The notes beneath the pieces were generated by a model, which made no database searches, was not told where the DNA came from, and saw only the letters and a program-made list of their open reading frames with translations. The position numbers and the translations under genes were made by a program. Shown in pieces: positions 2,512 through 64,000 of a stretch of 64,000 nt of DNA. The DNA lies in assembly GCA_000004985.1 (NCBI GenBank), contig GG738864.1. The stretch is one strand, 5' to 3'. The stretch is from Naegleria gruberi. Lineage: Eukaryota. Within the stretch, counting starts at the first letter, position 1. Each line of letters opens with the position of its first letter.

Positions 2512-4427
2512 ATGAAACAATCACTCTTGCTAGTTGTTGCTGTTTGTTCCGTGATGGCAATGTTATTGTCATCATTGGCCGTGGCACAAACTGAAAAGGA
2601 TCATCTCGTTACAACTCTCCCTGGTTATAAGGTATGTTTGTTTTATTGCATGGATGCTGATATGCTGAACCATTGACAATAATGCACGGGCAAATTATTC
2701 ACAAATATTCACTCTTGTATGAATTTTAATAATAATTAATAATATAGGATGGTAGAACACCACTTCCATTCAAATCATATACTGGTTATTTATTGGCAAA
2801 TCAAACTAGAGGCCATTACTTGTTTTATTGGTTTTTTGAAGCTCAAACAAATAGTGACACAGCTCCTCTTGTTTTCTGGACAAATGGTGGACCAGGTTAG
2901 TAGTATAATCTGTTGTGGCATTCAATATTTTCTATGAAAATCATGCAATTTTTTTATGATATGGAACTATACAGGCTGTTCAAGTCTTGGAGGAGAAGCC
3001 AGTGAACGTATGTATTTAAAAGTTATTATCAATTGAGGATCATTTAATATTATATAGATGGATTTTTACTTGTCAATGCTGATGGTGCTACTTTGAGAGA
3101 AAATCCATACAGTTGGAATAGAAAGGCCAATATGTTGTACATTGAACAACCTATTGGTGTTGGTTTCAGTTATTCAAATCATACTTCTGATTATGGAGTT
3201 GTCAATGATGTGATGGCTGCTTCTGATATGGCTAATGCTTACAGAGATTTCATTAAGAGATTCCCAAAGTTTTTGAATAGAGATGTTTATTTGTCAGGTG
3301 AAGTAAGTATATTCACACATTGAATGAGATTGAATTTCTTACCAAATAATAGTCTTATGGAGGAGTTTATGTTCCAACTACTGCAGCTGAAATTATTCAA
3401 GGAAACCAAAATGGACAAGTCCCATACATTAATTTGAAGGGTATTTTAGTCGGAAATGGTGTTACAGGTATGTTTACTGAAATGTTAAATTCCATAACAA
3501 TTATTTCTAGATGCTGAGGCTGACGCAAATAGCATTCCACCAATGATGAAATATCACAGTTTGATCTCTATCAAGTATTACGAGCAAGGTTTTGCTGCAT
3601 GCAAGGGTGATTTCTTTAACAATCAAAATGTTCCAGCTTGTGCTCAATTTTTGGACCAAAGTAACAATGTCATGGGTAATATTAACCCATACTACATTTA
3701 TGACAGCTGTCCATGGTTGGGTATTACTTCTCAAAAAGCCAAGATTTCATTCCAAGAAAAGAAATTCAATGTTTTGAATGAACAAGGAAAGAAAGTCGAT
3801 GTTCATCCACTTTTCCAAATGTACAAACATGGTGGTTGGTCAAAGAGAGTTGCATTGCAATCAAATTCTAAGGTTAGAATGGAGTCTGACAGTCCATGTG
3901 TTCCAAATCAATCCATTGCTAAATATTTCAAGAGATTGGATGTCCAAAAAGCCCTTGGTATTCAACACGGAACTGTTGATCCAAATGGTTGGGATATCTG
4001 TACCAATGCCATTAATTATACTCAAGTTTATCCAAGTATTCTTCCATTCTATACAAAGTTGTTGCAACACATTAGAATTCTTGTTTTCTCTGGTGATGTA
4101 GACATGGTAAGTTCTCCATATTTCTAATTGTTTTTAATAATTACTAATTTTAATATTTTAATTCCATAGGTTGTTAACTCTTACGGAACTCAAGCTGCTA
4201 TTGATAAATTGCAATTGCAAGAAACTTCATCTTGGAGAACTTGGGAACATGAAACAGTTACTGGAACAGTTGTTGGAGGATATATCAGAAAGTTTGGACC
4301 AGGCGGAAAGAATGGACAAGGATTGACCTTTATTACCATTAGAGGCGGTTCTCACATGGTTCCTATGGTGAAACCAGAAGCTGCTCTCACCTACTTTACT
4401 AAATTCTTGGATGGTGATTGTTGTTAA
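2512..4427 (+). CDS. Serine carboxypeptidase (peptidase S10), secreted; 7 exons
   Basis: Signal peptide [18 protein letters not shown]. Introns re-derived at about 2632-2747, 2896-2974, 3008-3057, 3304-3352, 3468-3510 and 4107-4169 (all GT..AG). Hallmarks: [35 protein letters not shown] (catalytic Ser), FSGDVDM (Asp), RGGSHMVP (His). Confidence 0.85.
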
Positions 4428-4442
4428 ATAAAGTTAAACATT

Positions 4443-5018
4443 TTATTGAGATGATTCATTTGGATTCTTTAAATATTTAATAACCTTACAAGGATTTCCA
4501 GCAGCAACAACATATGGAGGAATATCCTTAGTGACAACAGAACCAGCTCCAATAGTTGTTCCCTTTCCAATCTTAACTCCTGGAAGAATAATTGCAGCTC
4601 CACCAATCCAAACATCATCTCCAATCTCAATTGGTTTTGCATATTCCAATCCAGATTTTCTCTCCTCTGGATCCACTGGATGAGTTGCAGTATATACATT
4701 TACATTAGGTCCAAATAAAACATTATTTCCAATTCTAATTTCACACACATCCAACATGACACATCCAAAATTAGCAAAAAATGATTTTCCATAATGAATA
4801 TTATATCCATAATCACATCTAAATGTTGGTTCTAGAAAACTTCCCTCACCATGAGTTCCCATCAATTCTTTCAAAATTCCATCCATTACCTTCTTATCTT
4901 GTTCATTATTATAGAGATGAACGAGTTGACGAGCTTTGGCTCTCTCTTGAACTAGCTGTTCATCCATGGCATTGTAGAGCTCTCCAGCGAGCATTTTCTC
5001 CTTTTCACTTCTTTGCAT
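4443..5018 (-). CDS. Maltose/galactoside O-acetyltransferase (Maa/LacA family, left-handed beta-helix hexapeptide repeats); intronless
   Basis: A 191-aa single ORF with an N-terminal Mac domain and hexapeptide repeats (IGNNVLFGPNVNVYTATHPVDPEERKSG...IGDDVWIGGAAIILPGVKIGKGTTIGAGSVVTKDIPPYVVAAGNPCKVI). It closely resembles bacterial Maa. Confidence 0.85.
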   Translation of the reverse strand: MQRSEKEKMLAGELYNAMDEQLVQERAKARQLVHLYNNEQDKKVMDGILKELMGTHGEGSFLEPTFRCDYGYNIHYGKSFFANFGCVMLDVCEIRIGNNVLFGPNVNVYTATHPVDPEERKSGLEYAKPIEIGDDVWIGGAAIILPGVKIGKGTTIGAGSVVTKDIPPYVVAAGNPCKVIKYLKNPNESSQ

Positions 5019-5277
5019 TTTTTTTTGATTGTTTTTTGTAATAATTTAACTTGGATATTAATATTGGACGAATCTTATTTGGAAAGACACGTGTTTTTTC
5101 ATTCTTTTCAGCTGAATTGAAAAAGAAATATCTTTTCAATAAATGTTTAAAGTTTAAAACAACTTACAAAATCCGCCAAATCAAGTTCTTTAAGTTTTGT
5201 AACACAATATGGAGTTTACTTTAGTTATGTAACATGATATGGAGTTTACAATATTATAACACATCCCAACAAAAAAA

Positions 5278-18142: not shown

Positions 18143-20682
18143 ATGTCTTCACTGTATAGACCAGCTAAGATTATTGATAGAGATGGCAAGGAGGACAAGA
18201 CCTACCTGACTGATGTGATTCATACATCGGATTCTGTGGTGTGGAGTGGTGATGATGAAGATAGCAGCAGCAATAATGGAAAGAGTCATTCTAAGAGGAG
18301 TAATTATTCATTGTTGTTTTTTGCAATGGTTGCCCTCCTGTTATCGGTGTATATTTATCAAAGTGATGGAATTAATACAATGAAGAGTGTTGTGAGTTCT
18401 GTGATACAGGATTCAAATGCTAAAGCTATTAGAAACAAACCACAAAAAGTTCATACAAAAAGATCAAATTTTGTGTCTAAACCAAAAGTTCAAAAATCCG
18501 AGCGTTTATATGATGTAGTTGATTATGTATATAATTGCAGTAATGATCATTCTGTTACTGAATTGCCTGGTTATGGATCTATTTCAAGAGAAGACGAATC
18601 TCTTTATTCATTTGCTGGTCATTTATCAGTCCATAGAGAGGATACTAATAAGGACAGATTTGGAGCTTTGTTTTATTGGTTCTTTGGTAGAAAGGATTCT
18701 GAAAGACCAATCATGCTCTGGCTTCAAGGAGGTCCATCAGCTTCAAGCATGATTGCAGGTATGTTTACAATGAATTTTGAAATAATTTTACAATATTAGC
18801 ATTTGAGGAATTTATTTCACCCTTCTATATTAGTAATTCAACAAATCAATTGAATTTACATTATAATAATCAGTCATGGATTTCACAATGTGATTTATTA
18901 TTTATTGACCAACCTGTTGGAGCTGGTTTCAGCTATGAATATCCTACAAATGATTTTACAACCACTAGACATCAAGTATCAAATGATTTATACAGTGTAT
19001 TACTTAACTTTTTTGATAAATATCCACAATTCAGAAATAGAGATTTGATTTTTGCTGGAGAAAGTTATGCTGGAAAGTATTTGCCTTCTCTTGCTGAGAG
19101 AGTTTATTTACTCAAGATGGAAGGAGACGAACCAACTTATGAACCTGTTCAAAAGCATGGTATTCACAAGAGACTCAAAGGTATTATTATTGGAGATGGG
19201 TTTACTGCACCAATTGTTCAAAGAGTTTTGAAAGCAGATCAAGCTTACTGGAGTGGACTTCTTGGATATCAACAACGTCAACAATTGAAAACCTTGCAAA
19301 GAGATTGTGTCAGACACATTCAAGAGGGAAACACTGTTGAGCTTGGATCTGCATGTGAGGCTGTCAAGTCTTATATTTTAATTGCCTCTGGTGTTATTAA
19401 TATTTATGATATTAGAACCTTTTCTCCTTCAACTGATAAACCTAGATTGGAAGGCTATCTCAATCAACCAGATGTTAAGAAAGCCCTTCACATTCTTGAT
19501 AGAGACATTCCAAACAAACCAGAAGACATCAAATTTTGGTCAACTCGTCCACATCCTGTCTACGACTACCTTAAGGCTGATATTTTGACGGATTTGAGAG
19601 ATTTGTTACCTCAAATTGCAGAAAGAACTAAATTATTACTCTATGGAGGTAATTTCGATTTGCAGGATGGACCTCAACCTATTGAAAGATTTTTATTAAC
19701 AATTAATGACCCAATGATTAAGAGATGGGTTGAAGCTCCAAGAAATCTCTTCTTTGTAAATAACAAAGTTGCTGGATATGAAAAGAGCTCTGGAAACTTT
19801 TCCTTAGTGACAATTTTCGGAAATGGCCACTTTGTACATAGTCAAAAGGACTCTATGAGAGCTTTACTCAAAAAGTTTATTGCCCTAACCTATCAGCCAA
19901 CTGCTGATTTGTCATTCTGTTCTGAAAGTGAAACCATTCCTGTAAGGTTCAAGACTCTAACTCCTTCTACCTTCCTCAAATATTTGTACGATAACGAAAC
20001 TATGGAGCACAGAATTCCATGTCAAAGTCAACAATTGATTTGTGAAAAGATTTTGAAGAATTGTAATGGACACGGTACTTGTGTTCATGGATATTGTAAA
20101 TGTATTCCTGGATATACTGGAGAAACATGTGAAAATGTGGTTCAAGTCATTCCAATTGGATATGAATCTGAGGAACCATTCGTTATGAAACAACAAGAAT
20201 TATTCTATGGAAAAGTTCATTTGGAAGAAAGAAAGGCCATTACAACAGTGCAAGTAAATTGGAGACCAAAGGAAGTGAATGAATTTGACCAACCTCTAAA
20301 AGCACCAAACTACAAGTATGATTCAGTTTCCAAACCATCATCCAAGATGTGTTTGATTATTAAAAGAGGCTCTCTTCCAAAGATGGATGATTATGACAAA
20401 GTTCATTGTAAGGACTCTCATTTGGATGGTCCTCTTTTAGTTGTTTCGAATAGTACTCAAACTGAAGAAATGAAAGGAAGATTATTCTTTGGAATTGTCA
20501 ACACACAACAATATGAAGTTGAGTGTGAATTGAAAGTTTTATCATGGAATCAAGAGTATTCTGTATTCTTACTGGACGAAACTGTTTCAAAGTTAAATAA
20601 CGAGAGAAATTTCCTTCTAGGAAGCACCATTCTTCTGCTAATAATTGTAATTATTGGTGGATTCATGTTAAAATGTAAATAA
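18143..20682 (+). CDS. S10 serine-carboxypeptidase-like protein with a C-terminal EGF-like domain and TM anchor (type I membrane protein); 2 exons
   Basis: Exon 1 18143-18758 ends WLQGGPSASSMIAG. A 41-nt intron (18759-18799, GTATGT..ATTAG, phase 1) precedes exon 2 from 18800 (AFEEFISPFYISN...NNQSWISQCDLLFIDQPVGAGFSY). Catalytic triad candidates retained: GESYAG, GNFDLQDG, GNGHFVHS. Then CEKILKNCNGHGTCVHGYCKCIPGYTGETCENV (EGF) and the TM segment LGSTILLLIIVIIGGFML. Confidence 0.75.
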
Positions 20683-22788: not shown

Positions 22789-22859
22789 CTCGAACGCCGG
22801 GAATTGAACCCGGGTCGCCAGAGTGACAGTCTGGAATGCTACCACTATACCACGCCCGA
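22789..22859 (-). tRNA. tRNA-Asp (anticodon GUC)
   Basis: Minus-strand sequence TCGGGCG TG GTAT AGTGGTA GCAT T CCAGA CTGTCAC TCTGG CGAC CCGGG TTCAATT CCCGG CGTTCGA + G. Cloverleaf with a 7-bp acceptor stem (two G-U pairs), anticodon loop CU-GUC-AC, T-loop TTCAATT. Close to canonical eukaryotic tRNA-Asp. No CCA encoded. Confidence 0.85.
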
Positions 22860-45739: not shown

Positions 45740-46969
45740 ATGCTTCACCAAACCACCAAGAAAATCTCATCACAAATTTTATTGTCATCTTCATTGAACA
45801 GAATCGGAATGATGCAACAAGCTGCTACAAGATCATTCTCTACTTTTAATGTTGCTAGATCGGAGGCTTCTGTTATTTTCCATGAAAAGACTGAACCATC
45901 TGTTCAAGTAGTTACTCTCAACAGACCAAAGGCTTTAAATTCACTCAACTTGGAAATGGTTAGAGAAATGACACCAAAATATGAAGAATTATTAAAATCA
46001 GAAACTAAAATGATTATTTTAAAGGGTTCTGGTGATAAAGCTTTCTGTGCTGGTGGTGATATTAAAGCAATTTATGAATCAAAAGATCCAAAATTCTTTG
46101 CTGAAGAATATCAATTGAATTACTTGATTGGTTCTCTCTATGAAAAACATAAGAAGGTTCAAGTAGCATTGTTAAATGGTATTACTATGGGAGGTGGTGT
46201 TGGAGTGAGTGTTCAACCAGATACTTTGAGAATTGCAACTGAAAAGACAATGTTTGCCATGCCAGAAACAGCTATTGGTTTCTTTTGTGATGTTGGTGGA
46301 AGTTATTTCTTACCAAGAATTCCAATTAAGGGACTTGGTATGTATTTGGCATTGACAGGTTCAAGATTGAAGGGGGAACAATGTGTTGTTGCTGGTGTTG
46401 CTACTCATTTTGTTCCAAGTGAAAAATTGGGTGAATTGGAAGAATTACTTGTAAAGATTGCTCGTGAAAGTACTGGACCAATTGATAAGGAATTCATTGC
46501 CAAGGAAATTGAAAAGCATTTCCCACAACATCAATATATTCATTCCAAGCATGCTAATTCATTCATGGAACATGAAAAGGAAATTTCATTGTTTGATCCA
46601 TCTCAAAGTCCTTCAGTTCATGATATCGTTGAAGGATTGAAGAAATTGGATACTGCTCATGCCCATCATACTCTCAAGACTTTGGAACAAATGTCACCAA
46701 CTAGTTTGAGAGTTGTTCACAGACAATTGAGAATGGGAAGTGTTTTAGGATATAAGGAATGTTTTGATATGGAATATGGAATGGCTAAACAAATGATGAA
46801 TGGTAATGATTTCTTTGAAGGTGTTAGAGCTTTACTTGTTGATAAGGATAAGAATCCAAAGTGGAATCCTGCTACTCTTGATCAAGTTAAACAAAAGGAT
46901 GTAGACATGTATTTTGAATCATTTATGACAACATCTTCAAAAATTGTAAATGGAAATGAACTTGCCTAA
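45740..46969 (+). CDS. hibch: 3-hydroxyisobutyryl-CoA hydrolase (HIBCH; enoyl-CoA hydratase/isomerase superfamily), mitochondrial type
   Basis: 409 aa. VVTLNRPKALNSLNLEMV...ILKGSGDKAFCAGGDIKAIYE...ITMGGGVGVSV...ETAIGFFCDVGGSYFL. Presequence-like N-terminus. Confidence 0.8.
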   Translation: MLHQTTKKISSQILLSSSLNRIGMMQQAATRSFSTFNVARSEASVIFHEKTEPSVQVVTLNRPKALNSLNLEMVREMTPKYEELLKSETKMIILKGSGDKAFCAGGDIKAIYESKDPKFFAEEYQLNYLIGSLYEKHKKVQVALLNGITMGGGVGVSVQPDTLRIATEKTMFAMPETAIGFFCDVGGSYFLPRIPIKGLGMYLALTGSRLKGEQCVVAGVATHFVPSEKLGELEELLVKIARESTGPIDKEFIAKEIEKHFPQHQYIHSKHANSFMEHEKEISLFDPSQSPSVHDIVEGLKKLDTAHAHHTLKTLEQMSPTSLRVVHRQLRMGSVLGYKECFDMEYGMAKQMMNGNDFFEGVRALLVDKDKNPKWNPATLDQVKQKDVDMYFESFMTTSSKIVNGNELA

Positions 46970-47018: not shown

Positions 47019-47926
47019 TTATTCTACATTTGTGCTTTCATCAGCTCTATTTCTCTTATGAAGAGATTCTGAAATATTTACATCTTGGTCAGCAATATTG
47101 ACATCATCTTCCTTAATTTCTTCAACAGGTTGATTATTTTCTTCTCTGAGATCAGCTTGGTGTTCTCTCATTCTTTCCTCTTCTTCATTTTGATCAACAT
47201 CAAAAAAGTCTTGAGGATCACGATAAACTGGAGGATGTGCTTGAAGATCATGATCACCTGGGAATAATTTAGAAATTAAAAGAGGAGTTTTAAGTGGATC
47301 AACTCCATCAAATTCACCTGGTATAACATCTTTGAGATAAAAGTAAATATGTCCAACTGCAATTCCTACCAAATCCACAACAGGACTCATTCCCATCAAT
47401 AATCCAACTCCTAATAAAACCCAAGCCAAATATCCTGCTCCAACAGTGAAAATTCCATAAATACGAAATTGTTCATGTGGATTTCTTCTACTCCAAATAT
47501 AAAGTAACATTATAACAAGTGCATGACTCATGAACGGAAGTTGAAGAAGAGGTGAAATGCAAAGCATCATCACACATCCGAATAAAATCAAGTAAAAGAA
47601 GTCTCCAGTTTTTCTATGGAATGAATGTTCTTCCAATCTTCTACAATAAAAGTACAGAAAATACAAATGTAATATAAAATTAATACTAAATCGATCAAAG
47701 AATAGAAAATTAGTAGCAAGTCGCCAGAACTATATTCTGTTTTAAAATAGATCTTGATATCTTTGAAACATACCTGATATTGGAAAAATACATTTTGGAA
47801 ATTTAAATATAATTGCAAGGGATTTAGTAAATCAAAAGTAACAGCAAAGCTAGTAATTGTTGAGAGGGTGAGAAATGTTCTTGTTATCACCGGAATGGAA
47901 AAGTACCATTGTTCAAGGTTAGTCAT
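47019..47926 (-). CDS. Derlin (Der1-like ERAD protein); 2 exons
   Basis: Exon 1 47926-47774 (MTNLEQWYFSIPVITRTFLTLSTITSFAVTFDLLNPLQLYLNFQNVFFQYQ). A 44-nt intron 47730-47773 (CAG|GTATGT..AATATAG). Exon 2 47729-47019 (FWRLATNFLFFDRFSINFILHLYFLYFYCRRLEEHSF...IMLLYIWSRRNPHEQFRIYGIFTVGAGYLAWVLLG...GHIYFYL...). Colinear with Derlin-1/2. Confidence 0.8.
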
Positions 47927-48133
47927 TATTTAATAATACAGTTTTAAAAAGAGTCGTGGGGTGAGAATGTATGATGTGATTGGGTGATTTTTTTTTACTT
48001 GAAATCTTCAAACACGTGTTCTATTTTTTGTTTTTTCAATAAGAACGGAATCTGAAGTGGAAGTTGACAGTGAAAACTATTTTGTTTTACAAAACCTTGT
48101 TTTCCTCATACGGTGCTTGGATTTGATAATTAT

Positions 48134-50253: not shown

Positions 50254-50435
50254 TTTTTGATTGTGTCAATTATTTGCCGGCATCTTTTCAAAGTGTCATC
50301 AACATTCAGTCTGAACGCTCACAAACCATTTTGGTTGATTGGGTCTTTTATGAAATAAAATAAGAATGGATTTTAACTTGGGTTTCTAATAAATTACACA
50401 TGTCAAACACAAAATCATATGGCTCGCCACGTTAA

Positions 50436-50506
50436 CCGTCTCGGGAGGAATCGAACCTCCGTCAATGGATTCAAAGTCCACTATGCTACCATTACACCAC
50501 GAGACG
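50436..50506 (-). tRNA. tRNA-Gln (anticodon UUG)
   Basis: Minus-strand sequence CGTCTCG TG GTGT AATGGTA GCAT A GTGGA CTTTGAA TCCAT TGAC GGAGG TTCGATT CCTCC CGAGACG + G. Perfect 7-bp acceptor stem. Anticodon loop CU-UUG-AA. Close to the eukaryotic tRNA-Gln consensus. Confidence 0.85.
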
Positions 50507-50580
50507 AGCACATTCATGATGAAAATAAACCTCATTTGCACGCGAAAAAATTGGGTTCAAGATTTTAACCCGAGTCTTAT

Positions 50581-55916: not shown

Positions 55917-56200
55917 ATGGTTAACTTTTGTTGTGCAAAGAAGAAAACTGATATTGAGGTTGACAAGAAAATGAAATGGCAATTGTTACAATATATTAAA
56001 GAAAAGAACATGATCGCATTTGGTTTAATGATACTGTTGATGAATGGAGAGGGAGCAAGGTTTATTGATATTGGCTCAAATGAAATTGATATTGAAGGAG
56101 CAAAATTTATTAGTCAACTGAAACAATTAACAATACTTATCTAAGCAAAAATGATATCAAAGACGAAGGAACCAAATATATTTGTGATCAATTAACCTCT
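55917..56200 (+). pseudogene. Short LRR (RNI-like) gene fragment with an internal frameshift; probable remnant
   Basis: ...GARFIDIGSNEIDIEGAKFISQLKQLTILI* continues in the +1 frame as YLSKNDIKDEGTKYICDQL, giving three RNI-type LRR units interrupted near 56140. There is no plausible intron and no obvious full-length context. Confidence 0.3.
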
Positions 56201-56254
56201 CATGTTATGCGTTATCAATTGATGCTAGTCATTTCAGTTTTAAATTATTTTTTA

Positions 56255-58615
56255 TTAAACAATTTGTGCAGCTGTTTTTGGATGTAAATTTGCTTGATTT
56301 GGATCAACAGTTTCTAATTCTTCACCATGATAAACATATTTAACATTTGAAACATCAATAGGTGGAATATATTTATCAAATCCATTTCTGTAATCATTAA
56401 TAGATTTTTCACCATTTTTAGTAATATAATTTGGATGTCTAAATCTAGGACAACAAAAATATTTTTGTACAAAATTAGTACCAGTTGTAAAGAAATGAAT
56501 AATTAAATAAATAATATAAAGTAAAAATGCAGAAAAGAAACAAATATGATAAGGAGTAATAATAGAAAGTACAGGTTGACTAGTATTTGATGGATCATAA
56601 TTTAAACTTATTGTAAAGTAAATTCTTGTAATTGACATTAAAATATATCTTATTAAAAATGCAATTGATAAAAAATTGAGTGCAGTAGGTGATAACAAGT
56701 CAACTTCTTTACCTTCAGCTCTATAAATTTTTAAAATATTAAATTTATCAACAAAATAACATGCCATTAATCCACCTGTTATTATAAATAATGATACTGG
56801 AAATAATCCACTAAATACAATACCAATAAACATATTTTTTAATTGATATGAATATCTATCTATATATATTTATATTTATATTAAAATTAAATTAAAAAAT
56901 AAATTAAAAAATATTAAAATATTAAAATATTAAAATGATAAAATTTAAAAAAAAACATACATTCATAAGAATAAACAGGTGGTTCATGTGCCTTATTTAA
57001 ATCTTCTTGTGTAACACTTGTTGCAATTCTATATCTTTTTAAAAAATAATGATAAATTCCTAATAAGGCATCCTTAATAGTATTTGATGCAACACTTGTA
57101 CATGTTACAAAAAATAATGAACTGTACCATGCTGAACTTTCAACTAGAATTGGAATATTAGCATTACCAATTGTAAATGCTCCTTTTGGTATAATAACAC
57201 TATTATCTGTCATTTCAGAATAATAACTGCCAACTGTCGGTGATGTTAAATATACAAATAAATAGGCTATTGTTGTTAAGAAGGAACCAAATGTTACTTT
57301 CATCATTAAACTTTGTTTAGCATTTAATTGAAAACGATGTTTTTCAAAATTAGATAATACTATTATTATTGTAATATTATTGTAAAGTATTTAATATTTA
57401 ATATTAAATAAAACTTACAATATAAAATATAGGTCATTACTTGTACAAGAATAAAAACCAAAACTGACAATCCGAGACTCGCAAAAATTTGCCAATTTTG
57501 GAAGGAAGGATTTTCAATCCAATCAGAAATGGAAATACTTGAAAATTTGTCCTTTTTCAAAACTTCTAAAACAACAGCTACTGCAACCACTGCACCTGAA
57601 AATAGTACTGTTGCTAAAAATGATACTGAACGTCTACTATATTTGGAAATTACTGAATATTCTCTAAAAATATTAAAAATAAATATAAAATAAATATAAA
57701 ATAAATATTTAAATTAAATTAAAAATAACATACAAATTTTCCCAAATAATATCATGAGGTTCATGTGCAGGTTCAACTCTAATTCTATGTTTCTTTTTAG
57801 AATAAGTACCAGATTTAGAACAAATTCTCTGAATCATTGGTCTATTAAATGTATGAAGACATTTAAATCTAGACTTTTCATTTTCAAATGCTGAATTCAT
57901 TACCATTTTAATAATAAAATAAATATTAAAATAAATATAAAAATATAAAAATATAAAAATAAATATAAATATTAAATATATAAATATATAAAGATATAAA
58001 TAACATACTAATAAAAGCATCACCTGTACATCTATAAGCTTTCTTTCTCATACTTTTAGCAATATCTTTTTGAATAAAATTTAAATAAATTGAAAAGTAA
58101 ATTCTCTTAATTTTTTCAATTAAAACAAAACAACCACCTCTACTAATTACAATATCACATTTTTCAATTTCCTTAATTAGTTCATCTTTCTTTTTTATAG
58201 ATTTACTTATATCACCACAATCTAAGGCTAGTGCAATATTATCTAATTTACCAAATTTACTAAAATGTTTATATAATCGTTTTTTACCATGTGCTGCTTC
58301 TGTTGATGGTAAATCACGAATATGTACTCTAATTATTATTAAATATTATTTAAATAGTATATATATGGTAATATTTAAATAATATTATATTTAAATAATT
58401 TAATTATATTTAATAAATTAAAAAATAAAACTAACTACTTACGAATAATCAGCTACTGAAATAGTTCTCTTTGCAACTTTATCATTAATTCTATTAGTTA
58501 TCCAAAAAAGGAAACGTAAATAAACAATAGAAAATAAAGCAATTACAACTTCAAGAGTACCAAATGCAATATTAACACCACCACTTGCATTTAAATCATA
58601 GTTAGCCATACTCAT
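56255..58615 (-). CDS. OSCA/TMEM63/CSC1-type (DUF221) stress-gated cation channel; at least 6 exons
   Basis: Exon 1 58615-58443 (MSMANYDLNASGGVNIAFGTLEVVIALFSIVYLRFLFWITNRINDKVAKRTISVADYS, i.e. TM0). Introns on the plus strand are 58329-58442, 57891-58008, 57664-57733, 57360-57418 and 56860-56960 (donors GTAAGT/GTATGT). Exons 58328-58009 (cytosolic domain ...GDAFI), 57890-57734 (TFENEKSRF...RIRVEPAHEPHDIIWENL, the PHM7_cyt hallmark), 57663-57419, 57359-56961 and 56859-56255 (7TM region ...FIGIVFSGLFPVSLFIITGG...). The ORF-track ORF 57709-58023 reads through an intron. Confidence 0.7.
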
Positions 58616-59122
58616 TTGAAAAAATGTTGAAGGATTAGTTTTCTTTATAAATATTAAATATTATTGTAAAATATATTATTAAATATATTATTATTAAATA
58701 TAAACATACTTGTGCATAAAAATACAAATAAGGAGCGTGTAAAGCAGATAAAATTACAAAAAATATAACAATTAATAAACTAATATATAAATATAACATG
58801 GATGATCTACCCAATGATGTTAATTTCCAAAATGGTGTACATAGAAATGAATATTTCTTTTTACTTTTAGAATTTGTCTATTATTAAATATTATTAAATA
58901 TTATTCATGATGTTAAATAGTGTTTGACATTTGATTATTAATAATGATGATAATAATAATGATGTTAATGATGATGATGAAAATAATGACATACATAGTA
59001 CATCCGATTGCCATATTCTCTGGCATGTTTTTTATTTAACGTGCCAGATAATGTCATTTTTTTTGTAGTGAAAATGAAAATTAATTCGTTGGCAGCTGAC
59101 AAGTGACAGTTCTAAGAACGAA

Positions 59123-59228
59123 NNNNNNNNNNNNNNNNNNNNNNNNNNNNNNNNNNNNNNNNNNNNNNNNNNNNNNNNNNNNNNNNNNNNNNNNNNNNNN
59201 NNNNNNNNNNNNNNNNNNNNNNNNNNNN
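59123..59228. other. Assembly gap (106 N)
   Basis: Run of n in the sequence. Confidence 0.95.
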
Positions 59229-59692
59229 TTTGATGATGATTGTTGAGTAATAATATTTTGATTATTAATCATTTTTTTTTTGTAATTAATATTTACATAT
59301 TATTGTAATTGAAAACAAACACTTTTTATTTTGTAATAATTACATATTACTAATTGAATTTGAGATTTAACTAATACATATAGATTGGAAATTATTAAGA
59401 AATACTTTTAGTTTGAAATATGACATTGCTCATTGACGTGCATGACAATAAAAGTACCAATTTTAGAGTTTCATTTCTGTAATCCATTAAAATCTATAAT
59501 TCTATTGTACTAATCTTCAGGATTCTCAAATCCATGATCCAAATTCAAAAAATCAATCGTTAAAAAATTTCCATTCTCAAAGATGAATTTTACAATTTGT
59601 ATCAAACATGTCAGACTCAAAAATAGTCAATTACTAATTTAGAGTGTTTAAGCATTATTGGCAACTGACATGAATACCTTATCAATCGCACT

Positions 59693-61877
59693 ATGGTAAT
59701 TAAAAAACTTTTCAACATGCACACTCCTCCAACAACCTTCATCATATTTCATAAACAATTCAAAAAAAATCAACACAATATGACAACACCACTTATATTA
59801 CATCACCAAGAGAAACAACATTTTAGAGCAACAGCAGCAGTTATAAGAATTATTGTAATATTTTCATGTATTTTATTTTTTTTATCTCTATTAGTTCAAT
59901 GTAGTAGTGATAATGATCTTTATGAAACTCAACTATTTAATAGAATATATAATACTAATTTTATGTGGTTACAAAATGTTGAATCATCTTCGTCATCATA
60001 TATATCATCATCATATCAATCATTATCTCTTGATATGAACTATCAAAATAATTCAACATTAAATTCAACATCATCTTTAAATTATGGTGATTGTAATCCA
60101 ATATTATTTGAATTGGGTAATTTTAGTAGAGATGGTACAAATGTAATGTATTCAATATGTCCAGATACATGGTTGACTCCTGCTGTTTCAATTGTATTTT
60201 TAACAGGTTATTTAATTGCATTGTTATTGTGTGGAATATTTTTATTCCTCAAAAGGAAATCACCACATGTTAAAGCTAGAAATTTATCATATATGGTAAT
60301 GACTATTTTATCTAATTCTGGATTTATTATTATTATTTGTTTAAGATTTATTATAGGTAGAAGAATATATCCATGTTCTATATATATTTTATCCTATTTT
60401 ATTATTCCACCTGGTATTTTATTACCTTCCATATTTAGATTATGGAGATTGTATTTCATGTATAAGGAAAATTTACAAAAAATGAAAATGAATGAATATA
60501 AAAAGGATGAAAAAATTACAACTACTAATAATAATCAATTATCTCAAATTTCAAATAATACTACTACTAATACAACTACTAATACAATTAGTTCACTTTC
60601 GAATAAGAAAATAAATTCATCCTCATCTAACAATTTAACCTATGATAATGATACAGAAAGTACAGATGATACAAATTCATATTGGAATGATTATGAATTG
60701 GAATTTAAAAAACATGAAAAACTTCATAAATTATATTCCTTTCTATTAAGTAACAAATTTGTAATAGTTTCCTATTTAGTATCATTTTGTTTACATATAT
60801 TACTATTTATAATATTAGGTTCAATTGAGGAAGGTATTTACAGTAGAGATTCATCAAAGCCTAGAGTTTTTTTAGGTGATGGCGGATTTTTTGTATCAAC
60901 TCGTGGTTGTGTTATTAATAATTCAATTGTAATAATTTTGGCGGTAGAAGCTATTTTCTACATTGTAGTGGAAATTGTATTCCTAGTATTGAGTTTTATT
61001 ACACCGAGAGATACTTGGTTTATTAAGAGAGAAACATTGGTTTTAATTACTTTACAATTTTTAGCAATTATTTTATTTGCAATTTGTGGATTTTTAGATG
61101 CTATTGCTAATTTTACAGATTATTTTGTTCCATTTGGATTTGTTTTAATGACCTATTCATTTGTGGAAGTTATTGTTTGTGTTTTATTTCCAATTTTAGT
61201 ATATTCTAATGGGAAAATTAAAAATGGAAAGGATTCTGAATTGGAACAATTTTTAATGAATAAGAGAACTTTTACAATTTTACTTGATTTTGCAAGAAGA
61301 AGGTTTGTTTATTTAAATTAATTTTATTTAATTTATGTATTTTAATTTTTTTTTTAATTTAAATTAATTTATATTTTTAATTTAATTTAAAATAGTTATT
61401 GTCCAGAATCAGTATTATGTTATAGAGATATAGAAAGATATAAATTAACAAGTAAAAAGAATAGAAAGAAAGCAGCATTAAAAATTACAAAAACCTATTT
61501 AAAAACAGGTTCACCATTAGAATTAAATTTTCCAAAATTGAATCAAACATTTGAAGAATATTCACAAATAATTAATAATTCCAATAATAATCAATCATTA
61601 TTAGAAACTAGTTTATTTGAATCAATTCAATTACATTGTCTAGATGATATGAGAGATGTATTCGATCGATTGAAAAATCAAAGTAAGGAAACTAGAAATA
61701 TTTTAGAACAATGGAAATTACAACAACAATTAAAGGAAATGGATGATATTAATATTAATATGAATAATAATAATAGTACTACTATTACAATGCAACAACA
61801 ATTTGAAGATGACTCATATTTACCAAATGTAGAATCAATTGATTTATCAAATATTAATAATAATCAAAATAGTCTTN
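59693..61877 (+). CDS. Second 7TM-RGS receptor (paralog of 48134-50253, opposite orientation); 3' end lost in a scaffold gap
   Basis: Exon 1 59693-61302 (same ectodomain motif CNPILFELGNFSRDGTNVMYSICPDTWLTP, 7 TM helices, ...LEQFLMNKRTFTILLDFARRR). A 93-nt intron 61303-61395 (AG|GTTTGT..AAAATAG, same phase-2 position as the paralog). Exon 2 from 61396 (S-YCPESVLCYRDIERYKLTSKKNRKKAALKITKTYL...FESIQLHCLDDMRDVFDRLKNQ...) runs into N at 61878. The start may instead be the internal ATG (MTTPLILHHQ...). Confidence 0.65.
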
Positions 61878-62504
61878 NNNNNNNNNNNNNNNNNNNNNNN
61901 NNNNNNNNNNNNNNNNNNNNNNNNNNNNNNNNNNNNNNNNNNNNNNNNNNNNNNNNNNNNNNNNNNNNNNNNNNNNNNNNNNNNNNNNNNNNNNNNNNNN
62001 NNNNNNNNNNNNNNNNNNNNNNNNNNNNNNNNNNNNNNNNNNNNNNNNNNNNNNNNNNNNNNNNNNNNNNNNNNNNNNNNNNNNNNNNNNNNNNNNNNNN
62101 NNNNNNNNNNNNNNNNNNNNNNNNNNNNNNNNNNNNNNNNNNNNNNNNNNNNNNNNNNNNNNNNNNNNNNNNNNNNNNNNNNNNNNNNNNNNNNNNNNNN
62201 NNNNNNNNNNNNNNNNNNNNNNNNNNNNNNNNNNNNNNNNNNNNNNNNNNNNNNNNNNNNNNNNNNNNNNNNNNNNNNNNNNNNNNNNNNNNNNNNNNNN
62301 NNNNNNNNNNNNNNNNNNNNNNNNNNNNNNNNNNNNNNNNNNNNNNNNNNNNNNNNNNNNNNNNNNNNNNNNNNNNNNNNNNNNNNNNNNNNNNNNNNNN
62401 NNNNNNNNNNNNNNNNNNNNNNNNNNNNNNNNNNNNNNNNNNNNNNNNNNNNNNNNNNNNNNNNNNNNNNNNNNNNNNNNNNNNNNNNNNNNNNNNNNNN
62501 NNNN
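61878..62504. other. Assembly gap (627 N)
   Basis: Run of n. ORF-track entries spanning it (61538-62521, 61839-62597, 61864-62517) are artefacts of translating N. Confidence 0.95.
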
Positions 62505-62719
62505 TCCTTAGAAACAATTAAATGTTATTTACATAAAATAATTTATCAATTAAAACAATTTTCAAAATATTTACAATTATTTGATTACATTAAATAAATA
62601 CTATTCAATAAAATATTAATTTGATAAATTTAATAAAACTTAAAATAAACTTGAATTGATAAAATTAATAAAATAATAATAACTTGATAAAAATAAAAAA
62701 TTTATTTAAAAATTTATTA

Positions 62720-64000
62720 TTAATAATTAAAATTATTTCCTCTTCTACATTTTTCACTTCCTTTTTGAATAAAATCTTGTAAAATATCATCGAATGGATA
62801 ATTTAAATCAATTAAATTAAAAGTATTTAAAATAATATTACCAATTGGAGTATTTGAAATTGATAATTTAACAATATGATTATTATTTCTACTTATTAGT
62901 AAATTAATTTCAGTTTTAAATTCTCTTTCAAATAATTGTAATGTATTAATTGTCCATTCTTCACAATGTATTCCATTTATATTTTTAAATCCATTAAATT
63001 TAATTGAATAAATTTCATTTTTAATTTCTTTTAATTTTAATTCTAATGGAATTTGTAATAAATGTAATTGACTTGATAAAATTGAACATTTATCATTGGT
63101 TATTAAATATACTGATAAAAATTTTGTAAAATAATTTGGTAATATTATAAATTCAAATATTTTTGTAGAATTTTCATTTTCTATATTTGCATATAATTTC
63201 CTTTTTAGGTAATCCATTATTAAATAACCTTCAAATTTATGTACATTTCCATTTTGATCATTTTCAATTTTAATTTTTGTAAAAAATGATGATTTTACAA
63301 TAGGTTCAATAGTTGTATTTAAATTTTGTTTAATTTCCTTTTCACATTGATTTCCATTTATAGAAAAATCAATTGGTGCTAATCCTAAAGAACCAATTGC
63401 TAATAATTTTAATGATTTTTTATCAATTAAACCAATTGATCTTCCTAATATATCTGAAAATAATAAATTATTTAATTTATATTTAAAAATATTTTTAAAA
63501 ATATTAATTTTATAAATTATTTTACCTAAATTAGAAATATCACCACCATTAAAAAATACTAATTGATATTCATTATTTTCAAATTCATTTAAATTACAAA
63601 TTTTAATTTCTAAATTATTTTCTTTAATATGAACAAATATTTCAATTGGTTGATAAATTAAATTATTACCTTCCATTTTTGAAATTAATGAATATTTTAA
63701 ATTATTATTTATATTATTTATATTATTTAAATTATTTAAATTTAAATTATAATCTAAAATAGAAATTAAACATTGACCAATTCTATTTTTACCATTATCT
63801 TTATAATCATGTATAATTAAAGATCTACCAATTAAATCAATTAAATTTAATTTAGTATTATTATGTGAATATAAATGGAAATTAATTATATTATTAACTT
63901 TTAATTGATCTGAAATTGAATATAAATCAATTGTTGCACCTAAATCTTCATTTCCATTTTTAGAATTAAATAATAATTGTGAAGATAATAAATGTCCACC
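62720..64000 (-). CDS. Hypothetical Asn-rich protein, 3' part; the ORF continues upstream beyond the window end
   Basis: The ORF 62720-63676 extends without a stop to position 64000 (...GGHLLSSQLLFNSKNGNEDLGATIDLYSISDQ...LIGRSLIIHDYKDNGKNRIGQCLIS...EYQLVFFNGGDISNLGKIIY...LLAIGSLGLAPIDFSING...). There are weak hints of an actin-like/sugar-kinase (ASKHA) fold. This is not relied on. Confidence 0.45.
   Translation of the reverse strand, partial: GGHLLSSQLLFNSKNGNEDLGATIDLYSISDQLKVNNIINFHLYSHNNTKLNLIDLIGRSLIIHDYKDNGKNRIGQCLISILDYNLNLNNLNNINNINNNLKYSLISKMEGNNLIYQPIEIFVHIKENNLEIKICNLNEFENNEYQLVFFNGGDISNLGKIIYKINIFKNIFKYKLNNLLFSDILGRSIGLIDKKSLKLLAIGSLGLAPIDFSINGNQCEKEIKQNLNTTIEPIVKSSFFTKIKIENDQNGNVHKFEGYLIMDYLKRKLYANIENENSTKIFEFIILPNYFTKFLSVYLITNDKCSILSSQLHLLQIPLELKLKEIKNEIYSIKFNGFKNINGIHCEEWTINTLQLFEREFKTEINLLISRNNNHIVKLSISNTPIGNIILNTFNLIDLNYPFDDILQDFIQKGSEKCRRGNNFNY

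What the first reader, a model, noticed from the sequence alone, without database searches (positions are those of the whole stretch)
4443..5018. Intronless bacterial-type Maa/LacA hexapeptide O-acetyltransferase in an intron-rich eukaryotic neighbourhood
The 191-aa ORF is a near-textbook maltose/galactoside O-acetyltransferase: an N-terminal Mac domain, left-handed beta-helix hexapeptide repeats, and the C-terminal ...GNPCKVI motif. It has no intron, while both flanking genes are spliced. This is the pattern expected for a relatively recent horizontal acquisition from bacteria, or for an ancient retained bacterial-type enzyme.
Basis: partly seen in the sequence, partly recalled or inferred. 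Interest (0 to 1): 0.5.

Follow-up and report, generated by a model that had tools for sequence, protein, structure and literature searches.

The report
Old bacterial sugar acetyltransferase gene in Naegleria
The amoeba Naegleria gruberi carries an intact bacterial-type sugar O-acetyltransferase gene that its lineage took from bacteria long ago, an ordinary kind of old gene transfer, notable mainly for a short DNA box conserved in front of every eukaryotic copy.

Summary
The ORF is real: 4443-5018 on the minus strand, 191 aa, uninterrupted. It is a full-length Maa/LacA-type hexapeptide O-acetyltransferase (Mac cap, left-handed beta-helix, catalytic His113). It is 55-60% identical to solved bacterial Maa structures, and the model superposes at 1.0 Å.

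The host is Naegleria gruberi. A bacterial origin is supported. The family is overwhelmingly bacterial, and the closest bacterial genomes found, Opitutaceae MAGs, are 64-65% identical.

"Recent" transfer is not supported:
- Codon usage is fully host-like.
- N. fowleri, N. lovaniensis and Willaertia magna carry the gene, as do several eukaryote-like environmental contigs.
- The Willaertia copy has gained a 48-nt spliceosomal intron.
- Maximum-likelihood placement puts the window protein beside the N. lovaniensis one.

Lack of an intron says little here, because about half of the window is long unspliced ORFs.

One new observation: a palindromic ACACGTGT box lies 46-125 nt upstream of the start codon in 10 of 10 eukaryotic copies, against 4 of 151 bacterial or metagenomic controls. 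The only other copy in the window sits upstream of a Derlin gene. The box resembles fungal Hac1/HacA unfolded-protein-response sites, which is a hypothesis only.

Verdict: a new member of a known kind, of modest interest.

The parts
4443..5018 (-). Complete intronless coding sequence (191 codons plus TAA) of a Maa/LacA-type sugar O-acetyltransferase
   Evidence: ORF list; Pfam Mac + Hexapep; PDB Maa matches at E 1e-66 to 1e-72; AlphaFold model pLDDT 96.7, superposing on Maa crystal structures at TM 0.93-0.97, rmsd 1.0 Å
4848..4997 (-). N-terminal helical Mac capping domain (residues 8-57)
   Evidence: Pfam PF12464, E 1.5e-16, profile positions 1-53 of 53; helices 5-10, 20-37 and 42-52 in the model
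4473..4835 (-). Left-handed beta-helix body built of hexapeptide repeats (residues about 62-182), ending in GNPCKVI
   Evidence: Pfam Hexapep/Hexapep_2; short beta strands recur from residue 66 to 182 in the model; gap-free alignment to 1ocx and 2ic7 over this stretch
4680..4682 (-). Codon for His113, in the ATHP loop; aligns with the conserved histidine of the family, taken to be the general base
   Evidence: Aligned with the ATHP histidine of all five solved Maa proteins; invariant in 54 of 54 aligned homologs. The catalytic role is from established knowledge of LacA/Maa, not tested here.
5087..5094 (.). Palindromic ACACGTGT box, 69 nt upstream of the Maa start codon, inside the 259-nt divergent intergenic region; candidate cis-regulatory element
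   Evidence: A CACGTG core with A/T flanks is present 46-125 nt upstream of the ATG in 10 of 10 eukaryote-like Maa loci, with unconserved flanks. Controls: 4 of 151 loci, Fisher p = 4e-13. ACACGTGT occurs twice in the window against 0.10 expected.
5019..5277 (.). Divergent intergenic region shared with ORF 5278 (plus strand); presumed promoter region of both genes
   Evidence: Read directly from the sequence. It holds the ACACGTGT box and a 2 x 30-nt tandem repeat at 5190-5249.
4428..4442 (.). Only 15 nt separate the stop codons of the convergent carboxypeptidase and Maa genes, so their 3' UTRs must overlap; this shows tight integration into host DNA
   Evidence: Read directly from the sequence; carboxypeptidase gene model

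Best explanation
The ORF is a functional, cytosolic sugar O-acetyltransferase of the Maa/LacA family in the Naegleria gruberi nuclear genome.

By homology, the enzyme is a trimer of left-handed beta-helices. Active sites lie between subunits. There His113 deprotonates a sugar hydroxyl (the 6-OH in the characterised bacterial enzymes), which then takes the acetyl group from acetyl-CoA.

The gene came from bacteria by horizontal transfer. The closest bacterial relatives found are Opitutaceae/Opitutales (Verrucomicrobiota). The transfer went into an ancestor shared at least by Naegleria and Willaertia, not into N. gruberi recently.

Since then the gene has been fully domesticated: host codon usage, eukaryotic flanks, an intron gained in Willaertia, and a conserved ACACGTGT promoter box.

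- Shown: gene identity, fold, residue conservation, host context, codon usage, distribution in relatives, the intron, and conservation of the box.
- Inferred: catalytic activity, trimer, acceptor substrate, donor lineage, single origin, and function of the box.
For: Identity and integrity:
- Family and structure matches.
- AlphaFold model pLDDT 96.7; top Foldseek hits are Maa structures at TM 0.93-0.97, rmsd 1.0 Å.
- 59 of the 60 columns that are at least 90% conserved in 53 homologs are kept, including His113.

Host: the window's HIBCH ORF is 100% identical to an N. gruberi protein. It is 73-74% identical to N. fowleri and N. lovaniensis and 71% to Willaertia.

Integration: the neighbouring stop codon is 15 nt away and the divergent neighbour's start is 259 nt away. 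GC3 and CAI are host-like.

Bacterial origin:
- 19,208 50%-identity clusters match at E <= 1e-10, and nearly all named hits in the hit lists are bacterial.
- Opitutaceae MAGs are 64-65% identical.

Age and single clade:
- Homologs occur in N. lovaniensis and N. fowleri, which are syntenic with each other, and in Willaertia. They also occur on contigs carrying eukaryotic neighbour genes: cullin, F-box, V-ATPase d, RCC1.
- Leave-one-out profile scoring gives the window protein 333.7 bits against the other nine eukaryote-like sequences, 289.6 against Opitutales and 299.4 against other bacteria.
- Maximum-likelihood placement puts it on the stem of (P0002 + N. lovaniensis), 22 lnL units better than any branch outside the eukaryote-like clade. 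54 of 60 bootstrap replicates place it inside that clade.
- The Willaertia gene has a 48-nt phase-1 GTAAGT..AG intron, which carries an in-frame stop if retained.
- The upstream box is conserved in 10 of 10 eukaryotic copies.
Against: - Distance trees are poorly resolved. Bootstrap support for the eukaryote-like clade is 4-26%, and in one reduced NJ tree the window sequence fell outside it.
- No clade-specific signature residue was found.
- There is no synteny between the N. gruberi locus and the N. lovaniensis, N. fowleri or Willaertia loci. Orthology therefore rests on the placement and on the box.
- The ML placement used a home-made BLOSUM62-derived model on NJ backbones, not a full tree search.
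- The donor assignment rests on best identities, weak NJ grouping (54%) and second-best placements.
- The NCBIfam equivalog cut-offs for Maa and LacA are not reached, so acceptor specificity is open.
- No expression data were available.
Confidence: 0.85

Rival explanations
1. Recent horizontal transfer from a bacterium into the N. gruberi lineage alone.
For: The gene is intronless. It is 64-65% identical to Opitutaceae proteins, only a little below its identity to other eukaryotic copies at 62-73%. It is not syntenic with the N. lovaniensis or N. fowleri copies.
Against: GC3 is 0.198 and CAI 0.797, inside or above the host range, while the closest bacterial genes have GC3 of 0.70 and CAI of 0.27. 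ML placement puts it next to N. lovaniensis. It shares the upstream ACACGTGT box with all other eukaryotic copies, and bacteria lack that box.
Confidence: 0.04
2. Several independent transfers from similar bacterial donors into different heterolobosean or protist lineages, rather than one ancestral transfer.
For: Gene neighbourhoods differ between N. gruberi, N. fowleri/N. lovaniensis, Willaertia and the environmental contigs. NJ support for one eukaryote clade is low. Maa-type genes are known to enter eukaryotes repeatedly: Candida orthopsilosis (PMC3338533), anaerobic gut fungi (bioRxiv 10.1101/487215), and a Bemisia tabaci homolog that groups elsewhere in the NJ tree.
Against: All ten eukaryote-like sequences score 10-60 bits better against the profile of the others than against the bacterial profiles. 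The same ACACGTGT box sits at a similar distance upstream in all ten, which independent transfers would not produce. The ML placement also argues against it.
Confidence: 0.07
3. Ancient vertical inheritance from the first eukaryotes or the mitochondrial ancestor, followed by loss in most lineages.
For: Codon usage is host-like, the protein clusters with other eukaryotic sequences, and one relative has an intron.
Against: Identity to bacterial proteins (64-65%) exceeds what a conserved vertically inherited enzyme of this genome shows to any non-heterolobosean eukaryote (at most 54%). Named eukaryotic hits among the top homologs are only Naegleria, Willaertia and the insect Bemisia, and the last groups apart. 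The nearest bacteria found are Verrucomicrobiota and Bacillota, not Alphaproteobacteria.
Confidence: 0.03
4. Bacterial contamination or assembly chimera, or a decaying pseudogene.
For: None beyond the bacterial-like protein sequence. The exact protein is not in the protein collection, although other N. gruberi proteins are.
Against: The gene lies 15 nt and 259 nt from spliced or eukaryotic genes on continuous sequence, and the nearest N run is 57 kb away. Composition is host-like. The ORF is intact, with 59 of 60 conserved columns kept.
Confidence: 0.01

Closest known systems
Bacterial maltose O-acetyltransferase (Maa; E. coli 1ocx, Geobacillus kaustophilus 2ic7/2p2o, Bacillus anthracis 3hjj, Clostridioides difficile 3srt)
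   Same: Same length and architecture: Mac cap plus left-handed beta-helix. 54-60% identity. The model superposes at rmsd 0.9-1.5 Å, and the ATHP histidine and 59 of 60 conserved columns are kept.
   Different: It is encoded in a eukaryotic nucleus with host codon usage and a eukaryotic-type upstream box. It scores below the NCBIfam equivalog cut-off (250.5 against 314 bits). A near-invariant Arg is Met at position 45. The Met that the NeuO paper links to di- and oligosaccharide acceptors (E. coli Met100; PMC3046976) is Leu101 here. Substrate preference may therefore differ.
E. coli galactoside O-acetyltransferase LacA (1kqa/1kru)
   Same: Same family and fold. 43-44% identity, TM 0.90-0.91. 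It shares the proposed role of acetylating non-metabolisable glycosides.
   Different: It is clearly more distant than Maa (166.6 against 250.5 bits in NCBIfam). LacA has a C-terminal extension that is absent here.
Maa/LacA-type genes transferred from bacteria into fungi (Candida orthopsilosis CORT0E04740; Neocallimastigomycota)
   Same: A bacterial MAT/GAT gene resident in a eukaryotic genome, about 65-68% identical to bacterial proteins (PMC3338533; bioRxiv 10.1101/487215).
   Different: The recipient (Heterolobosea) and the apparent donor group (Opitutales rather than Bacteroidetes) both differ. Here the transfer is old enough to be shared by two genera, to have gained an intron in one of them, and to carry a conserved promoter box.
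Annotated homologs in N. fowleri (FDP41_013448), N. lovaniensis (C9374_013274) and Willaertia magna (ABK040_005060)
   Same: Same clade by ML placement and profile scoring, and the same upstream ACACGTGT box.
   Different: Only 62-67% identical to the window protein. The N. fowleri and N. lovaniensis proteins carry 25-50 extra low-complexity N-terminal residues. Their chromosomal neighbourhoods differ from the window's. The Willaertia copy has an intron.
UPRE-2-like Hac1/HacA binding site of fungi (ACGTG(T/G)(C/A); A. niger ACACGTGTCCT)
   Same: In gene orientation the N. gruberi box reads ACACGTGTC. Two environmental copies read CACGTGTCC. The motif description is taken from PMC12310822. The second copy in the window lies upstream of a Derlin gene, and Derlins are classic unfolded-protein-response targets in other eukaryotes.
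   Different: No binding factor, induction data or genome-wide enrichment is known for Naegleria. Most copies read ACACGTGTT, which is outside the strict fungal consensus. A CACGTG core is equally a bHLH E-box/G-box.

Membership tests
Maa/LacA sugar O-acetyltransferase family (hexapeptide acyltransferases with a Mac cap) | N-terminal Mac capping domain | tested here: met
   PF12464, 60.8 bits against a cut-off of 22.1, profile 1-53 of 53
Maa/LacA sugar O-acetyltransferase family (hexapeptide acyltransferases with a Mac cap) | Left-handed beta-helix built of hexapeptide repeats | tested here: met
   PF00132, 49.9 bits against a cut-off of 27; model pLDDT 96.7 superposes on Maa and LacA structures at TM 0.90-0.97
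Maa/LacA sugar O-acetyltransferase family (hexapeptide acyltransferases with a Mac cap) | Conserved histidine in the extended loop (ATHP), taken to be the general base | tested here: met
   His113 aligns with the histidine of all five solved Maa proteins and is invariant in 54 sequences
Maa/LacA sugar O-acetyltransferase family (hexapeptide acyltransferases with a Mac cap) | Homotrimer with acetyl-CoA and acceptor sites between subunits | not tested
   Only a monomer was modelled; the trimer is inferred from 54-60% identity to trimeric crystal structures
Maa/LacA sugar O-acetyltransferase family (hexapeptide acyltransferases with a Mac cap) | Acetyl-CoA-dependent O-acetylation of a sugar hydroxyl | not testable with these tools
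   Needs an enzyme assay
Maltose O-acetyltransferase in the strict sense (NCBIfam equivalog NF007499 / PRK10092) | Score at or above the curated equivalog cut-off (314 bits) | tested here: not met
   250.5 bits. It should be called a sugar O-acetyltransferase of the Maa subgroup, not 'the' maltose enzyme.
Galactoside O-acetyltransferase LacA (NCBIfam NF007076) | Score at or above the curated cut-off (347 bits) | tested here: not met
   166.6 bits
Bacterium-to-eukaryote horizontally transferred gene | Physically linked to bona fide eukaryotic genes on uninterrupted sequence | tested here: met
   A spliced serine carboxypeptidase ends 15 nt away. N. gruberi HIBCH, CFAP58 and Derlin lie on the same sequence.
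Bacterium-to-eukaryote horizontally transferred gene | Family overwhelmingly prokaryotic, with the eukaryotic sequences a narrow clade inside it | tested here: met
   Named eukaryotic hits are only Naegleria, Willaertia and Bemisia among about 195 top homologs. Bacterial identities reach 64-65%. Profile scoring and ML placement support the clade.
Bacterium-to-eukaryote horizontally transferred gene | Identified donor lineage as a well-supported sister group | tested here: inconclusive
   Opitutales is the nearest group by identity. NJ grouping has 54% bootstrap at best. The best non-eukaryote ML placement is on the Opitutales stem. Support is weak and sampling was capped.
Recent transfer (compositionally foreign gene) | Codon usage or GC3 deviating from the host | tested here: not met
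   GC3 0.198 and CAI 0.797, against a host mean of 0.718 +/- 0.054
Hac1/HacA-type UPR element (UPRE-2-like) | Sequence ACGTG(T/G)(C/A) in the promoter | tested here: met
   The N. gruberi box reads ACACGTGTC in gene orientation. The consensus is taken from PMC12310822. Most other copies end in T rather than C or A.
Hac1/HacA-type UPR element (UPRE-2-like) | Bound by a UPR bZIP factor and conferring induction by ER stress | not testable with these tools
   Needs expression and binding experiments

The most novel reading that the evidence does not exclude
The transferred acetyltransferase has been wired into a host stress regulon through the conserved ACACGTGT box. The box resembles the fungal Hac1/HacA UPRE-2 site, and in this window it also sits upstream of a Derlin gene. 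On this reading the enzyme is induced together with ER-quality-control genes and acetylates harmful glycosides that the bacterivorous amoeba takes up. This would be the first defined cis-regulatory element of Heterolobosea, and a clear case of promoter acquisition by a bacterial gene kept across genera.
Probability: 0.2. Interest if true: 0.65.

Novelty: new member of a known kind. Interest (0 to 1): 0.33.

Why it matters
The gene itself adds one more well-documented case to the many bacterial genes in Naegleria. N. gruberi was already reported to hold many laterally acquired bacterial genes (PMC4053784).

It is a useful teaching case for dating a transfer. Intron absence misleads here. Codon usage, presence in sister genera, an intron gained in Willaertia and a conserved promoter box all show that the gene is old and domesticated.

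The part that could matter more is the ACACGTGT box. If it is a real transcription-factor site, it gives a handle on gene regulation in Naegleria, where promoter elements are essentially undescribed. It also shows how a foreign gene is plugged into a host regulon. The gene is present in the pathogen N. fowleri, so a bacterial-type enzyme absent from humans may be of minor interest as a marker or target.

Tried and rejected
- **Neighbour-joining trees** (Kimura distances) of 121, 195 and 60-66 sequences gave unstable positions and bootstraps of 0-54%. In one reduced set the window sequence left the eukaryote-like clade, and the chosen outgroups scattered. I replaced these with leave-one-out profile scoring and ML placement.
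- **Clade-specific signature residues:** only one column passed (G151), and it is shared with the Opitutales group. GNPC is not specific.
- **Synteny:** tblastx of the Willaertia, N. lovaniensis and environmental loci against the 64-kb window found nothing beyond the gene itself.
- **Representative-library search** (50% clusters) gave family size but no close relatives, because they collapse into one cluster.
I used them as controls for the box. L102 looked spliced but is a tandem partial duplicate.
- **Exact look-up** of the window protein found no record.
- **Literature:** no paper links Naegleria with this enzyme or with CACGTG motifs. The T. cruzi marinkellei acetyltransferase paper concerns an unrelated Cas1p-type enzyme. 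The N. gruberi genome paper is not held, so I could not check its list of transfer candidates or cite its intron density.
- **Paralogs:** none in the window.

Full report
**1. Observation.** The window has an ATG-initiated ORF of 191 codons on the minus strand at 4443-5018.
- Pfam finds a complete Mac capping domain (residues 8-57, E 1.5e-16) and hexapeptide repeats (E 2e-13).
- NCBIfam ranks maltose O-acetyltransferase first (250.5 bits, aligned 4-183 of 183) and LacA second (166.6 bits). Both are below the curated equivalog cut-offs.
- Five solved bacterial Maa proteins match at E 1e-66 to 1e-72. The alignments run end to end, with indels only in the N-terminal cap.
- An AlphaFold model built on 54 homologs has pLDDT 96.7. 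It superposes on Maa crystal structures at TM 0.93-0.97 and about 1.0 Å.
- The window protein keeps 59 of the 60 columns that are at least 90% conserved in 53 homologs, including the ATHP histidine (His113). The one exception is Arg to Met at position 45.

**2. Host and neighbourhood.** A 409-aa HIBCH ORF at 45740-46966 is 100% identical to an N. gruberi protein. It is 73-74% identical to N. fowleri and N. lovaniensis, 71% to Willaertia magna, and at most 54% to other eukaryotes. CFAP58, Derlin, Asterix and F-box genes confirm a flagellate eukaryote.
- The upstream serine carboxypeptidase gene needs six GT..AG introns (43-116 nt). Spliced, it covers the whole Peptidase_S10 profile at E 2.4e-122.
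- The downstream ORF probably has a 41-nt intron near its 3' end, which I could not verify.
- However, 23 uninterrupted ORFs of at least 250 aa cover 49% of the window. Lack of an intron in a 576-nt gene is therefore not informative.
- The gene is tightly embedded. It lies 15 nt from the neighbour's stop codon and 259 nt from the divergent neighbour's start.

**3. Origin.** The family is huge: 19,208 50%-identity clusters match at E <= 1e-10. Nearly all named hits in the hit lists are bacterial.
- The closest bacterial genomes found are Opitutaceae MAGs (65% and 64% identity). Bacillota follow at 54-61% and Pelagicoccus at 60%.
- That identity is higher than a vertically inherited enzyme of this genome shows to any non-heterolobosean eukaryote. 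This argues against descent from the first eukaryotes.
- Transfers of this family into eukaryotes are already documented for Candida orthopsilosis and anaerobic gut fungi. N. gruberi is reported to hold many bacterial genes.

**4. Age.**
- Codon usage is fully host-like. GC3 is 0.198, against 0.195-0.34 for host ORFs. CAI is 0.797, against 0.718 +/- 0.054, ranking above 20 of 22 host ORFs. The Opitutaceae gene has GC3 0.70 and CAI 0.27.
- Homologs exist in N. lovaniensis and N. fowleri. These two fall in one 90% cluster and have syntenic loci. Willaertia magna also has one. So do contigs carrying eukaryotic neighbour genes (L003, L009, L090) and four short contigs (L004-L007); L005 comes from the same organism as L090.
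- The Willaertia gene contains a 48-nt phase-1 GTAAGT..AG intron inside the WIGG|G repeat. Removing it reproduces the annotated protein exactly. Retaining it gives an in-frame stop.

**5. Phylogeny.** Neighbour-joining trees were unstable, so I used two other tests.
- Leave-one-out profile scoring. Each of the ten eukaryote-like sequences scores 10-60 bits higher against the profile of the other nine than against the Opitutales or other-bacteria profiles. The window protein scores 333.7, 289.6 and 299.4 bits respectively. Most controls behaved as expected. P0314 and the Bemisia protein scored about equally on the eukaryote-like and bacterial profiles.
- ML placement. I used a BLOSUM62-derived rate matrix with four gamma categories on an optimised backbone. 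The window protein falls on the stem of (P0002 + N. lovaniensis) with essentially all the likelihood weight. This is 22 lnL units better than the best branch outside the eukaryote-like clade, which is the Opitutales stem. 54 of 60 bootstrap replicates stay on eukaryote-only branches, and 49 of 60 stay next to P0002 or N. lovaniensis.

I conclude that the gene entered before Naegleria and Willaertia diverged. The donor assignment to Opitutales is tentative. No synteny links the N. gruberi locus to the others.

**6. A conserved upstream box.** While inspecting the promoter region I found ACACGTGT at 5087-5094.
- A CACGTG core, nearly always flanked by A and T, lies 46-125 nt upstream of the start codon in all ten eukaryote-like loci. 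The flanks are otherwise unalignable.
- CACGTG is rare in these genomes. There are three in the 64-kb window, one in 20.6 kb of Willaertia DNA (this one), and two in each of the N. lovaniensis and N. fowleri loci.
- Among 151 bacterial or metagenomic Maa loci, only four have CACGTG in the 150 nt upstream. Fisher p = 4e-13, or 6e-11 when close relatives are counted once.
- ACACGTGT occurs twice in the window against 0.10 expected. The second copy is 86 nt upstream of a Derlin gene.
- In N. fowleri and N. lovaniensis, the other CACGTG in each locus lies upstream of PHAF1.
- The box matches what PMC12310822 describes as a strong Hac1/HacA site: UPRE-2-like ACGTG(T/G)(C/A), and A. niger ACACGTGTCCT.

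That the box is a conserved cis-element of this gene is well supported. That it is an unfolded-protein-response element is a hypothesis, since a bHLH E-box is an equally simple reading.

**7. Mechanism.**
- From homology: a trimeric left-handed beta-helix enzyme that transfers acetyl from acetyl-CoA to a sugar hydroxyl, with His113 as the general base. There is no N-terminal targeting extension, so the protein is probably cytosolic.
- The acceptor is unknown. The equivalog cut-offs are not met. The Met that the NeuO paper associates with di- and oligosaccharide acceptors is Leu101 here.
- The family's proposed role, acetylating non-metabolisable glycosides so that they are not retained, would suit a bacterivore. 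This is inference.

**8. Verdict.** This is a real, intact, domesticated bacterial-type gene. It is ordinary as a class and wrongly suspected of being recent. The conserved promoter box is an unexpected and testable extra.

Noticed in passing
window 48012-48019 (gene at 47019-47926, minus strand): The only other ACACGTGT in the window lies 86 nt upstream of a two-exon Derlin (DER1 family) gene, a typical ER-quality-control gene. This hints at a shared regulon with the acetyltransferase.
   Followed up: partly
L008 14040 and L171 11060: In N. lovaniensis and N. fowleri, the only other CACGTG in each locus lies 56 and 193 nt upstream of the PHAF1 gene, which sits two genes away from the Maa gene.
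   Followed up: no
L001 10446-10493 (Willaertia magna): A 48-nt phase-1 spliceosomal intron sits inside the bacterial-derived gene, within a hexapeptide repeat. It is absent from the Naegleria copies and from every environmental copy whose called gene translates directly. This is a clear case of intron gain after transfer.
   Followed up: yes
window 4443-5018: The exact 191-aa protein, and anything more than 73% identical to it, is missing from the 5.8-billion-protein collection, although other N. gruberi proteins are present. The gene may be unannotated in the reference annotation, or simply not held.
   Followed up: partly
window 5190-5249: Two tandem 30-nt copies (87% identical; TTAAGTTTTGTAACACAATATGGAGTTTAC) lie in the divergent intergenic region, 29-88 nt upstream of ORF 5278.
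   Followed up: no
window 4425-4447: The convergent carboxypeptidase and Maa genes end 15 nt apart. Each has an AATAAA overlapping its own stop codon, so the transcripts must overlap at their 3' ends.
   Followed up: no
window 61878-62504 and 56000-64000: There is an assembly gap (run of N). From about 56 kb onward GC drops to about 0.16-0.24, against 0.28-0.33 in the preceding 6 kb. ORFs there have very AT-rich codons and no Pfam match.
   Followed up: partly
window 18850-20682: A second serine carboxypeptidase gene, this one a single long ORF fused to a C-terminal EGF-like domain. It contrasts with the six-intron paralog next to the Maa gene.
   Followed up: no
P0303 / P0470 (Bemisia tabaci): The whitefly genome encodes a Maa homolog, 59% identical to the window protein, that groups with Bacillota sequences in the NJ tree. 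This looks like a separate transfer into an insect.
   Followed up: no
P0121-P0127 (representative library): Proteins of 520-600 aa contain three tandem Maa-like units. Their origin is unknown, and they could be fusions or gene-calling artefacts.
   Followed up: no
L003 628-1170 and L007 3-404: Two environmental eukaryote-like contigs share a DJ-1/ThiJ-like gene directly upstream of the Maa gene. Local synteny is therefore kept within that sub-lineage.
   Followed up: partly
window 22789-22859 and 50435-50507: tRNA-Asp(GTC) and tRNA-Gln(TTG) genes, both on the minus strand.
   Followed up: no
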